Of a stretch of DNA of 64,000 nucleotides, positions 24,001-27,000 are shown piece by piece (the stretch's first letter is position 1; each line of letters starts with the position of its first letter). Location: the NCBI GenBank assembly GCA_965285935.1, contig OZ260666.1, positions 11,036,001-11,100,000 of the forward strand, given 5' to 3'. A program made the position numbers. Source of the DNA: Ophelia neglecta. Its lineage: Eukaryota.

Positions 24001-27000
24001 TTTATAACTACCTTACCTAGATATTACCTTTTGAAAACGCCTGCATTGTCCCTGACGAGTAGTCCAATGGTGTTGAAACCAAACCTGGGAAATAAGTATG
24101 GATAATCACAAGCGCAAAACTGCTAATAAAATAATTTAAGATCCACCGCTAGTAAATAAGCAGCTATGACCGAACAACTGTGGTCGAATAACCATAATTA
24201 GCGACTACTCCTCTGCAGGCAGGGTTTATATCCGGTGGCATTCCAAGACATTAACAGTGGATGGTCAATGAACCAATATACGAAAACACTCATATACTAG
24301 ATATTTTGTGTTTTCACCAGAGTATCGTAAAAACAATTACAAATTATTTAACACACAGTTAAAAGGATTTTGCTTACCTGACCTCACTTTATTTGTCTAG
24401 TATATGCATGTATATGTATGTGCATGTATATGTAGGTTTAAAAGGCAAATAATTAAATCTACCAAGATCAACTGCTTCACTTGGCTCAGACTCATAATTT
24501 GAACCTTCCTCGCGTCCCCGACAGGAGTAGGTTGATAACGGACCTTCCTCCAAAGATAAGTCGATTGATGATTCAAAACTAGCATTTGTGATATCTGTTC
24601 CATCACGCTGCCAGATGTAGGTCATATTTGGACGATAGATTTCCGGCAGAGAAGTCAAGTTGACTACACAGGTCAAACCATAGTCTTGAACTATAATGGA
24701 GGCTGAAGTTGGCTGACCTGCATTGTAAACAAATAGAAATTATATTAACCCCTTGGTATCTTTTGTCGAGGTTGGAATGCTTAAAGAGACTTAGAAAAGT
24801 ACTTAGTTATTTTATCTGAAATGTGTTCATCTTAGATTTTTTCTTCCATTGATGAAAATAACAATACCTAGGGTTAACTGATACGACATTTTTTTACATT
24901 TTTGACACTTGATATCAGTTTATTATCCTTCAATTCTGATTAGTTCTGACTTGGTCAAACATTTTCACTATGCAATTACGCACGTGGTTGTGTGTATTAT
25001 ATAAGGTTTTAGCTTACCCCATACAAAGATGATGCCTGAATTATTATAGTTGTTCCCAAAGCAGGAATATGTTCCGGCGTCGTCAAGCGTGACATTCGTC
25101 AAAGTGATATCCGCCACAGAATAATTACTCCAGCCAATTGTGAACCGGTTCAATTTTAGGTATTTTTTTGCCGGAAATATTTCTGTCACCTTTACATTAA
25201 ATACAAGTGTTTGATTATTGTCAAAACAGGTAACATATCGTTTGTTGTCACCACCTGGTAAATACCAGGAAAATGTGGCGTTGTCACCCTCGTAAACCGC
25301 TGTGATTTGAGGACCTGAGAGAGAATATTAATAAACCCGAGTTATATCAAATTGGTTTTAGGTATGTTGATAACAGAACAACCATTTCTAGAGACAAAGT
25401 AAATTGTACTGAAGGCCAGGCATAAACTAAAGGTTACGACCATATTTCGAATGCATGTTATAAATACACGCAGTGCTTAGTATCAGGACTGAATTCTTAG
25501 TTAACTGTTATGGCTATACCAAATAGTTATATTTTCCTCCTACCTCGAGCCTTGCCCCCCTAGCCCTCACCTAGTGACACATTCACATTAATGTGCCTTT
25601 GTTTAATAATTATTTGATTTGAACTTATGTGAAACGTTTGATAGTACTGTTCCGTTTTCTTCTGCCAAATCTGTGTACAAGAGCAGAAAGGCATGGCTCA
25701 CACAAAAATCTATTAAAATTACTTCATAATTCAATGATGTGTTCATAGTTTAAGGTGGACACGAACTCCTCCCTGCCTATGCATTATGATTGCTCCAATA
25801 ACTTGTAATAACGGTAATTGTTTTTAATACATTCGTCTATAGAAACTATAGTACTACTTCATTTTTAGGGCGTCACAAGTTTGTTTATACTAGCCAAGCG
25901 GTTTCGGAACGTGTAGCTGCACATCCATAAGCAACATGTTTGGAAGAACGCAGCCCCCCCCCCCCCAAGAGCTCCGTGTTTTGTGTACTGTGTATTTCAT
26001 TCAACAAAACCAAGTACATTACTTACTGTCTGCAGCCAGTGCCAATAAACAGACAATTTGCAAAACACAAATGACATACAATGTAGAATTTGGCATCAGC
26101 AGATCCATTCCTCTGTAGAACCGCATCCTGGACCTACATAGAAAAAAAACAGTACTTAACTTAGCATACACACGCAAGCACATCCAAACCCACTACAGGG
26201 GTTGTATTAAATGCGAATGTTGGCGCGAAAGACCAAAATAGTACTTAAACTACTTGATTTAAAAATTGGAATTATCGGCTAGTTCGGCAATATTGGCGTG
26301 TATACATTTGGCAATTTGAGAATTTCAGCAGCAGGTCACAGGTGCAGGGGATGGATGGAATGAAACAACTTAAGTGGCAAAATAATGCCAATGTCGGGCG
26401 CTTTTGTGATTAGTAGAAGCTGTGTTGAGATGTTGGTAGTATATAAGCACCATCACTCTTACGCAGGGAGTGAGAGAGACTTTGCTCAACTATAAGACGG
26501 AATCCTAGTCCTTGTGTAGATGTGATGCTCCTGTATCGTAGTCTCAGAGCGCAGGATATCCACTTGCACGTTTTGCAATATCGTTGGTTTGAGCCCACAT
26601 CAAATCGACAATTATTTGCCTCTTCAGGCTTGGGTTGTGCTACATTAAAAATGCACCAACAATTTTCCCCGCATTATAAATATCCATCAGTAGATAGGCC
26701 TACGCACATTATAAGGCTATTCGTCTATCTATTTAAAGTAGATGTGATAGCCAGTGTGACAATTGGGGGGGGGGGGGAGGGGGAGGGGTGCATTAGCGTG
26801 GGTAAAATAATAAGTACGCCCTCTAACTACACTATATTAAAACACATCATACTTTTAGCTTCAACATATGGATCTCACACTGGCTTGTAGTATGGATAGT
26901 GACCCTTCTTAAATAGTAAATGACCTGGTTTAGTGTACAAGAAGTCACTAGCTAGCTAGCCTGTAGAGCTGCTTATACTCAGGCACATACTATATAATAA

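What the first reader, a model, noticed from the sequence alone, without database searches (positions are those of the whole stretch)
25018..25314. V-set domains with a Cys/Trp swap (predicted C-F strand disulfide)
Seen: genes A and C have Trp at the B-strand Cys position (ATFSW, ANLTW), Cys at the C-strand Trp position (YVTCF, QVNCY), and keep the F-strand DAGTYxC. Gene B keeps the B-strand Trp but has lost the F-strand Cys (DNGTYTL). Established: the canonical Ig core is B-Cys, C-Trp, F-Cys; a C-F disulfide is known in CD4 domain 2, and Trp-for-Cys in Alr domain 1. Inference: an inverted core defining a V-set subtype that standard profiles would score poorly.
Basis: partly seen in the sequence, partly recalled or inferred. 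Interest (0 to 1): 0.68.

Follow-up and report, generated by a model that had tools for sequence, protein, structure and literature searches.

The report
Ig domains with swapped Cys/Trp core
Two neighbouring invertebrate cell-surface receptor genes begin with an antibody-like domain in which the usual buried cysteine and tryptophan have traded places, a rare but not unprecedented way to build this fold, and the new disulfide it implies could not be measured here.

Summary
Window 25018-25314 (minus strand) is a 297-nt, phase 1-1 exon with AG/GT borders. It encodes a 98-aa Ig-like domain (gene A D1) with Trp16 (ATFSW), Cys29 (YVTCF) and Cys84 (DAGTYSC). A paralogous exon, gene C D1 at 63477-63773, is 38% identical and keeps all three residues.

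Motif spacing puts Trp16 at the canonical B-strand Cys position, Cys29 at the C-strand Trp position and Cys84 at the F-strand Cys position. The strand order in two low-confidence AlphaFold2 models (pLDDT 50.5 and 61.3) agrees. Six of the eight canonical V-frame residues are kept. Each D1 has exactly two cysteines.

The proposed C-F disulfide is plausible, because those two positions are direct cross-strand neighbours and CD4 domain 2 is a precedent. It is untested here: no coordinates were available and the models are weak.

Gene B D1 has W/F/L at the three positions, the pattern reported for Hydractinia Alr domain 1. It is not detectably related to A and C beyond being Ig-like.

I rate it a new variant of a known kind, of moderate interest.

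The parts
25018..25314 (-). Gene A domain 1 exon (the finding): 98-aa V-like Ig domain with Trp16, Cys29 and Cys84; also Gly9, Arg56, Asp78, Tyr82 and five N-x-S/T sequons
   Evidence: Translation. AG/GT borders, 297 nt, phase 1-1. Pfam ig 28.5 bits, V-set 23.1 bits. AF2 model pLDDT 50.5. Foldseek hits to IgLON, sodium-channel beta4, ZIG-8, CRTAM and PD-1, TMq 0.53-0.62.
25383..25443 (-). Candidate signal-peptide exon of gene A (Met plus a 16-residue hydrophobic stretch, ending in phase 1). The donor GTTGTT is weak. Unverified.
   Evidence: ORF; coordinates, translation and splice dinucleotides.
24463..24717 (-). Gene A domain 2 exon: 84-aa Ig domain with the canonical triad (Cys16, Trp35, Cys65)
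   Evidence: Weak Pfam Ig_2 hit (16.1 bits). 46% identical to gene C D2.
21840..21935 (-). Candidate transmembrane exon of gene A (96 nt, phase 1-1, in phase with the D2 exon; no Cys)
   Evidence: Inferred from phase and hydrophobicity only.
21500..21652 (-). Candidate first cytoplasmic exon of gene A (acidic, contains FDPEMD)
   Evidence: No Pfam hit.
63477..63773 (-). Gene C domain 1 exon: paralog of A D1 (38% identity, no gaps) with the same Trp16, Cys29 and Cys84
   Evidence: tblastn E 1e-19 to 5e-22. Pfam V-set 26.1 bits over profile positions 3-96 of 109. AF2 pLDDT 61.3 with nine strands. Foldseek hits to TCR V-alpha, VL, shark VNAR and TREM-1, TMq 0.45-0.66.
63083..63334 (-). Gene C domain 2 exon: canonical Cys16, Trp35, Cys66
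53102..53428 (-). Gene B domain 1 exon: V-like domain with no disulfide pin. Trp20, Phe34 and Leu85 occupy the B-Cys, C-Trp and F-Cys positions. It has a single Cys (Cys11).
   Evidence: Pfam V-set 21.3 bits over profile 3-108 of 109. Full-length phmmer alignments to kappa VL chains. Not detectably related to A/C D1.

Best explanation
Genes A and C encode type I two-Ig cell-surface receptors: signal peptide, V-like D1, canonical C2/I-like D2, transmembrane helix and an acidic tail. Their membrane-distal domain keeps the V-frame scaffold but has a rewired core 'pin'. The scaffold comprises the A'B-turn Gly, the Arg-Asp salt-bridge pair, the E-strand hydrophobic residue, the Tyr corner and the F-strand Cys.

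The B-strand Cys is replaced by Trp16, whose bulk fills the core. The C-strand Trp is replaced by Cys29. Cys29 then lies directly across from the retained F-strand Cys84 in the same GFC sheet. The two most likely form an intra-sheet, cross-strand disulfide of the kind seen in CD4 domain 2, in place of the usual B-F bond between sheets.

Shown here: the residues, their conservation between the paralogs, their strand assignment, and the exon and phase structure. Inferred: the disulfide itself, the receptor or adhesion role, and the membrane topology.
For: - Residues and exon structure.
- A and C D1 align without gaps. 37 of 98 columns are invariant, including G9, W16, C29, R56, D78, Y82 and C84.
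- Spacings match the canonical V-set list Gly16/Cys23/Trp41/Arg75/Leu89/Asp98/Tyr102/Cys104 (PMC9546547 passages). G9 to W16 is 7 residues. D78, Y82 and C84 are spaced +4 and +2. R56 to D78 is 22 residues, against 23 numbered positions.
- DSSP of two AF2 models puts W16, C29 and C84 on the 2nd, 3rd and F-position strands. Both models retrieve V-set and I-set domains from the PDB (202 and 225 matches with E<=0.001; TMq about 0.45-0.66).
- ESM Atlas nearest clusters are V-set families (score 0.94).
- Each D1 has exactly two Cys. Each D2 has its own canonical pair, and the candidate TM exon has none. So no other partner is on offer in the ectodomain as read exon by exon.
- Geometry from the literature: the IgStrand paper states that the G, F, C and C' anchor residues, including the F-strand Cys and the C-strand Trp, form one stretch of backbone-backbone neighbours (PMC12051499 passages).
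- Precedent: CD4 D2 lost its B-strand Cys (to Leu), kept an orphan F-strand Cys, then gained a C-strand Cys that makes the Cys130-Cys159 cross-strand disulfide. This happened independently in primates and in muroid rodents (PMC4354306 passages).
- N-glycosylation sequons (5 in A D1, 3 in C D1, two of them shared) and a candidate signal peptide fit an extracellular location.
Against: - No coordinates could be obtained, so the Cys29-Cys84 distance and the packing of Trp16 were never measured.
- Both models have low confidence (mean pLDDT 50.5 and 61.3; the other four models of each job scored 28-48; alignments of only 3 and 2 sequences). Their strand assignments and Foldseek matches therefore carry limited weight.
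- No sequence method aligned the N-terminal half of A or C D1 to a known Ig domain. PDB searches cover only the D-F region. The N-terminal halves alone give noise. hhalign against the genes' own canonical D2 aligns only 8 F-strand columns.
- The placement of Cys29 at exactly the Trp41 position, rather than two residues away, therefore rests on spacing, the in/out residue pattern and weak models.
- Cross-strand disulfides are strained and can be labile, so the pair might often be reduced.
- Only two paralogs support conservation.
- There is no transcript evidence. The signal-peptide donor is weak, and the exons of gene C downstream of D2 were not found.
Confidence: 0.6

Rival explanations
1. 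The residue mapping is correct, but Cys29 and Cys84 are not a stable structural disulfide. They are either free thiols buried beside Trp16, or a labile, redox-switchable bond that opens to allow dimerisation or domain swapping.
For: Ig domains fold without any disulfide. Gene B D1 in this window has W/F/L at the three positions, and all Alr domain 1 sequences lack both Cys (PMC9546547). The CD4 D2 cross-strand bond is described as metastable and reducible by thioredoxin, and some lineages carry an orphan F-strand Cys alone (PMC4354306).
Against: Both Cys are invariant between paralogs that differ at 62% of positions. Each D1 has exactly two Cys. Paired cysteines in secreted domains are usually oxidised (general knowledge).
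Confidence: 0.22
2. The register is misread. Trp16 or Cys29 does not occupy the canonical pin position, so there is no true swap, only an Ig-like domain with an unusual cysteine placement. For example, Cys29 could be offset by two residues, or the domain could be an I-set or other variant with a different core.
For: The N-terminal half is unalignable to known Ig domains by sequence. The models are of low confidence. MAFFT aligned gene B's C-strand region to A and C differently from the phmmer alignment to VL chains. Trp61 and Trp98 are also invariant and could be the core aromatics.
Against: The Gly-to-Trp spacing of 7 is exact. Alternating hydrophobic residues (A12, F/L14, W16, L18 and V27, C29) put both residues on the inward face. 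The outward positions N11 (gene A) and N13 (gene C) carry glycosylation sequons. The residues after Cys29 (an aromatic, then a turn) resemble what usually follows the C-strand Trp (recalled pattern). Two separately run model jobs give the same strand order.
Confidence: 0.12
3. The exons are decaying pseudogene fragments or chance open frames, and the unusual residues reflect relaxed constraint.
For: There is no transcript evidence. The window is rich in retrotransposons. The signal-peptide donor is weak. Gene C's downstream exons were not found.
Against: All eight internal exons examined (the D1 and D2 exons of A and C, A's TM and tail exons, and B's two exons) are open, bordered by AG and GT, and in phase 1-1. 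The A and C exon pairs are conserved at protein level (E 1e-19 to 5e-22). Structural residues are preferentially kept.
Confidence: 0.06

Closest known systems
CD4 domain 2 (primates and muroid rodents): C-F cross-strand disulfide
   Same: The B-strand Cys is absent, the F-strand Cys is retained, and a Cys on the neighbouring C strand gives a disulfide within one sheet instead of between sheets (PMC4354306 passages).
   Different: CD4 D2 is a short, membrane-proximal C2-type domain with Leu at the B position. Here the domain is N-terminal and V-like (about 55 residues between the two Cys, with C' and C'' strands in the gene C model), and Trp occupies the B position. That the CD4 C-strand Cys sits exactly at the Trp position is my recollection and was not checked in a call. 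The disulfide is solved for CD4 and only inferred here.
Hydractinia Alr domain 1 (unusual V-set domains)
   Same: An aromatic residue (W, F or Y) replaces the B-strand Cys in an N-terminal V-set-like domain of an invertebrate type I receptor. The salt bridge is kept in most, and HMMER detection is weak (PMC9546547 passages). Gene B D1 in this window (W/F/L) matches the Alr pattern at all three positions.
   Different: In Alr D1 the Trp41 and Cys104 positions hold hydrophobic residues and there is no Cys pair. A and C D1 keep Cys104 and put Cys at position 41. Alr D2 lacks the paired cysteines and is followed by an Fn3-like domain. A and C D2 have the canonical C-W-C triad, and in gene A the next in-phase exon is the transmembrane one.
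Canonical V-set / V-frame Ig domains (Pfam PF07686)
   Same: Gly16, Arg75, the hydrophobic residue at Leu89, Asp98, Tyr102 and Cys104 have equivalents. The domain is one phase 1-1 exon. Foldseek matches are to V and I domains.
   Different: Cys23 is Trp and Trp41 is Cys. The V-set score is below (gene A) or at (gene C) the gathering threshold.
Disulfide-less V domains such as CD2
   Same: They show that the V fold tolerates loss of the B-F bond. The IgStrand paper names CD2 as an exception (PMC12051499). Gene B's F-strand ...GTYTL resembles the CEACAM N-domain (recalled, not tested).
   Different: Those domains keep the C-strand Trp and have no replacement disulfide (recalled). A and C D1 have lost the Trp and have a candidate replacement bond.

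Membership tests
V-set Ig domain (eight conserved residues of Cannon et al., as listed in PMC9546547) | Gly16 in the A'B turn, 7 residues before the B-strand anchor | tested here: met
   G9 to W16 is 7 residues in both A and C, and both residues are invariant. Gene B has G13 to W20, also 7.
V-set Ig domain (eight conserved residues) | Cys23 on strand B | tested here: not met
   Trp16 in A and C, Trp20 in B.
V-set Ig domain (eight conserved residues) | Trp41 on strand C | tested here: not met
   Cys29 in A and C (by spacing and model strand assignment). Phe34 in B (aligned to the VL Trp).
V-set Ig domain (eight conserved residues) | Arg75-Asp98 salt-bridge pair | tested here: met
   R56 and D78 are invariant in A and C. 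This shows presence in the sequence only; the contact itself was not measured.
V-set Ig domain (eight conserved residues) | Hydrophobic residue at Leu89, Tyr102 corner, Cys104 | tested here: met
   I69/L71, Y82 and C84 are invariant in A and C. PDB alignments place DAGTYxC on the F-strand motif of contactin, titin and CEA domains. Gene B has Leu in place of Cys104.
V-set Ig domain (Pfam PF07686) | Score at or above the gathering threshold (26 bits) | tested here: inconclusive
   A 23.1 (below), C 26.1 (at threshold), B 21.3 (below). A passes PF00047 ig with 28.5 vs 21.8.
V-set Ig domain | Nine-strand topology with C' and C'' strands | tested here: inconclusive
   The gene C model shows strands at 34-41 and 49-53 between C and D. 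The gene A model is disordered at 37-64 (pLDDT below 50). Both models have low confidence.
CD4-D2-type C-F cross-strand disulfide | No Cys on strand B; one Cys each on neighbouring strands C and F | tested here: met
   Sequence and model strand assignment.
CD4-D2-type C-F cross-strand disulfide | The two sulfurs within bonding distance / bond present | not testable with these tools
   Structure prediction returns no coordinates and no model file is exposed.
Hydractinia Alr family | Domain 1 pin fully replaced (aromatic at 23, hydrophobic at 41 and 104, no Cys) | tested here: not met
   A and C keep Cys84 and have Cys29. Gene B alone meets it.
Hydractinia Alr family | I-set domain 2 without the paired cysteines, followed by an Fn3-like domain with invariant cysteines | tested here: not met
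   A and C D2 have the canonical Cys-Trp-Cys triad. In gene A the next in-phase exon is transmembrane. The feature definition is from PMC9546547.
Two-Ig (V-C2) type I adhesion receptors such as the JAM/CTX group | Signal peptide, V domain, C2 domain, TM, tail; sequence homology to named members | not tested
   The architecture was read exon by exon only. The family comparison is recalled.

The most novel reading that the evidence does not exclude
A and C D1 represent a conserved, lineage-wide V-set subtype, possibly cnidarian (Atlas lead only). In it the inter-sheet B-F bond has been replaced by a strained C-F cross-strand disulfide on the ligand-binding GFC face. That bond would act as a redox or mechanical switch for receptor dimerisation or adhesion, evolved independently of the one in mammalian CD4 D2. 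The window would then hold two stages of pin remodelling side by side: W-C-C in genes A and C, and the fully pin-less W-F-L state of gene B, which is the pattern of the Hydractinia allorecognition V domains. This would suggest a route from the canonical pin to Alr-type domains.
Probability: 0.12. Interest if true: 0.65.

Novelty: new variant of a known kind. Interest (0 to 1): 0.4.

Why it matters
The Cys-Trp-Cys pin is the most conserved feature of the Ig fold, and sequence profiles depend on it. If this triad is confirmed, it would show three things.

- The pin can be permuted, not only lost. Core volume is kept by moving the Trp to strand B, and a covalent link is kept by moving a Cys to strand C.
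- The CD4-D2 type of cross-strand bond can arise in an N-terminal V-like domain of an invertebrate.
- Profile-based censuses may undercount V-type domains in early-branching animals, a point already raised for Hydractinia Alr genes (PMC9546547).

It does not open a long-standing question by itself. It is a structural variation on a well-known theme with a solved precedent.

Tried and rejected
- Measuring the Cys-Cys distance: the model is not exposed as a file and the tool output has no coordinates. Not done.
- Aligning the N-terminal half of A or C D1 to solved Ig domains. phmmer with residues 1-60 of C D1 and a two-sequence profile of residues 1-66 each returned 6 chance-level hits and no Ig domain. 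Whole-domain searches showed only D-F alignments among the five printed. A CD7 hit covering positions 2-90 (E 2.4e-05) was listed, but its alignment was not printed.
- Using the genes' own canonical D2 as a ruler: hhalign of D1 against D2 aligned 8 columns of strand F only.
- Linking gene B to A and C: tblastn found nothing at E<=10, and hhalign gave probability 3% over 34 columns. I do not treat B as the same family.
- Finding gene C's downstream exons by tblastx against gene A: only D1 and D2 matched.
- Pfam on the tail, TM and gene B exon 2: no family.
- One paper on cross-strand disulfides (PMC6295888) is not held.
- Not attempted: complex prediction, because I make no binding claim and the monomer models are weak. 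The genome-contig scan and the phage, plasmid and E. coli collections, because they hold no animal sequence. The third fold search.
So the frequency of the W/C/C triad elsewhere stayed unchecked, and no deeper alignment for folding could be built.
- Literature: searches returned no paper describing a V-set domain with Trp at the B-strand Cys position plus Cys at the C-strand Trp position. This covers only the held library, read as listings plus passages of four papers. Supplements, for example the Alr alignments in the SI of PMC9546547, were closed and could bear on this.
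Full report
**What is there.** The window looks like an invertebrate animal genome. GC content is 33-43% in 2-kb windows. There are several non-LTR retrotransposon ORFs with RVT_1 and endonuclease domains, and short phase-1 exons.

The finding's coordinates, 25018-25314 on the minus strand, are exactly one exon. It has the acceptor ...CTCTCAG and the donor GTAAGC, is 297 nt long, and is in phase 1 at both ends. It encodes 98 residues, with Trp16 in ATFSW, Cys29 in YVTCF, and Asp78/Tyr82/Cys84 in DAGTYSC.

A second exon of identical length and phase lies at 63477-63773 (gene C). 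It is 38% identical without gaps and has Trp, Cys and Cys at the same positions: ANLTW, QVNCY, DAGTYDC.

A third V-like exon lies at 53102-53428 (gene B). It also lacks any Cys or Trp on its C strand (MHFYK), and it has a single Cys nine residues before the Trp. A six-frame motif scan found no further V-like exon in the window.

**Gene context.** All searches and folds were done exon by exon.

Gene A has these parts:
- A candidate signal-peptide exon 68 nt upstream of D1 (25383-25443), with a weak donor.
- D1, the finding.
- A D2 exon (24463-24717) with a fully canonical Cys16/Trp35/Cys65 triad.
- A 96-nt hydrophobic exon (21840-21935) that follows D2 in phase.
- An acidic tail exon (21500-21652).

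Gene C has the paralogous D1 and D2 (46% identity in D2). Its other exons were not found, and its 5' end probably lies beyond the window.

The picture is a type I, two-Ig (V-like plus C2/I-like) surface receptor. D1 carries 5 (gene A) or 3 (gene C) N-glycosylation sequons, two of them shared.

**Is it an Ig V-type domain?**
- Pfam gives borderline Ig hits. A D1 scores 28.5 bits for ig (cutoff 21.8) and 23.1 for V-set (cutoff 26). C D1 scores 26.1 for V-set over profile positions 3-96 of 109. B D1 scores 21.3 for V-set over 3-108 of 109.
- The nearest ESM Atlas clusters are V-set families (0.94). The nearest unnamed clusters are mostly cnidarian (0.91-0.93). Both are leads only.
- AlphaFold2 on the single exons, with 3- and 2-sequence alignments, gave low-confidence models (mean pLDDT 50.5 and 61.3). 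Both still have beta-sandwich strand patterns.
- Both models retrieve V and I domains from the PDB. For gene A the hits are IgLON, sodium-channel beta4, ZIG-8, CRTAM and PD-1. For gene C they are TCR V-alpha, VL, shark VNAR, TREM-1 and TLT-1. TMq is about 0.45-0.66, with 202 and 225 matches at E<=0.001.

1. Spacing against the eight canonical V-set residues listed in PMC9546547 (passages read). Gly9 is 7 residues before Trp16, as Gly16 is before Cys23. Arg56, Asp78, Tyr82 and Cys84 reproduce Arg75, Asp98, Tyr102 and Cys104. Six of eight are kept, and the two exceptions are exactly the swapped pair.
2. In both models DSSP puts Trp16 in the second strand (12-17), Cys29 in the third (26-31 or 24-31) and Cys84 in the F-position strand (80-86/87).
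3. Alternation of hydrophobic residues (A12, F/L14, W16, L18; V27, C29) puts both residues on the inward face. The sequons at N11 (gene A) and N13 (gene C) fall on the outward face.
4. All three genes share the motif G-x-x-A-x-hydrophobic-x-W. For gene B, phmmer gave full-length alignments to solved kappa VL chains. In these its Gly, Trp20, Phe34 and Leu85 lie opposite the VL Gly, B-strand Cys, C-strand Trp and F-strand Cys. The E-values are marginal (0.035-0.13), but 25 of the 29 hits listed are antibody light-chain variable domains.

Against this, no sequence method could align the N-terminal half of A or C D1 to any known Ig domain. The exact register of Cys29 therefore remains an inference.

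**The disulfide.** I could not measure it. The case for it is indirect.
- Each D1 has exactly two Cys, and both are invariant between paralogs that differ at 62% of positions. D2 has its own pair, and the candidate TM exon has no Cys.
- The IgStrand paper states that the F-strand Cys and the C-strand Trp belong to one run of backbone-backbone neighbours in the GFCC' sheet (PMC12051499 passages). A Cys at the Trp position would therefore lie directly across from the F-strand Cys.
- CD4 domain 2 shows this outcome. Its B-strand Cys was lost (to Leu), an orphan F-strand Cys persisted, and a new C-strand Cys created the Cys130-Cys159 cross-strand bond, twice independently (PMC4354306 passages). 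That paper also describes such bonds as metastable, which keeps open the rival that the pair is labile or reduced.

**Gene B and Alr.** Gene B's W/F/L triad is the pattern reported for Hydractinia Alr domain 1, where an aromatic residue sits at Cys23 and hydrophobic residues at Trp41 and Cys104. However, B is not detectably related to A and C beyond being Ig-like. A and C also fail the Alr definition, because their D2 is canonical and is followed by a TM exon rather than an Fn3-like domain.

**Verdict.**
- The residue mapping is probably right (about 0.8).
- The C-F disulfide is plausible but untested (about 0.6 for a stable or labile bond).

Six literature searches found no description of this exact W/C/C triad. 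The held library is partial and supplements were closed. I rate it a new variant of a known kind, of moderate interest.

Noticed in passing
53102-53428 (minus): Gene B D1 is a V-like domain without a pin. Trp20, Phe34 and Leu85 occupy the Cys23, Trp41 and Cys104 positions, the same pattern published for Hydractinia Alr domain 1. It aligns full-length, though marginally, to solved kappa VL chains.
   Followed up: partly
52500-52835 (minus): Gene B's second exon (336 nt, phase 1-1) encodes 111 aa with four Cys and two sequons. It has no Pfam match. Its fold is unknown.
   Followed up: no
52100-52305, 50549-50754, 49168-49360: The stalk/transmembrane exon of gene B is present in three tandem copies at about 87% nucleotide identity. 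They could be alternative 3' exons or remnants of tandem gene duplication.
   Followed up: partly
21500-21652 and 21266-21409 (minus): The candidate cytoplasmic tail of gene A is acidic and contains FDPEMD. A nearby open frame carries FDPAMD. This is a possible repeated short linear motif with no Pfam match.
   Followed up: no
A D1 and C D1, residues 61 and 98: Two further tryptophans are invariant between the paralogs: one in [GS]WSN at the end of the D-position strand, and one as the last residue of the exon (FVW). They may contribute to the repacked core or to the D1-D2 junction.
   Followed up: no
566-1891, 14557-15510, 31091-33436, 34901-38320, 40585-43167: There are several long ORFs of non-LTR retrotransposons. 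RVT_1 and endonuclease domains were confirmed for three of them. A 412-aa ORF without a Pfam match (39036-40274) lies upstream of one.
   Followed up: partly
47635-48393 (minus): An ankyrin-repeat ORF of 252 aa (Ank_2, 83.5 bits) lies between gene B's exon copies and the retrotransposon block.
   Followed up: no
2921-3138, 12518-12649, 28102-28269: Three runs of N (518 bases in all). They were left as they are. None touches the exons described.
   Followed up: no
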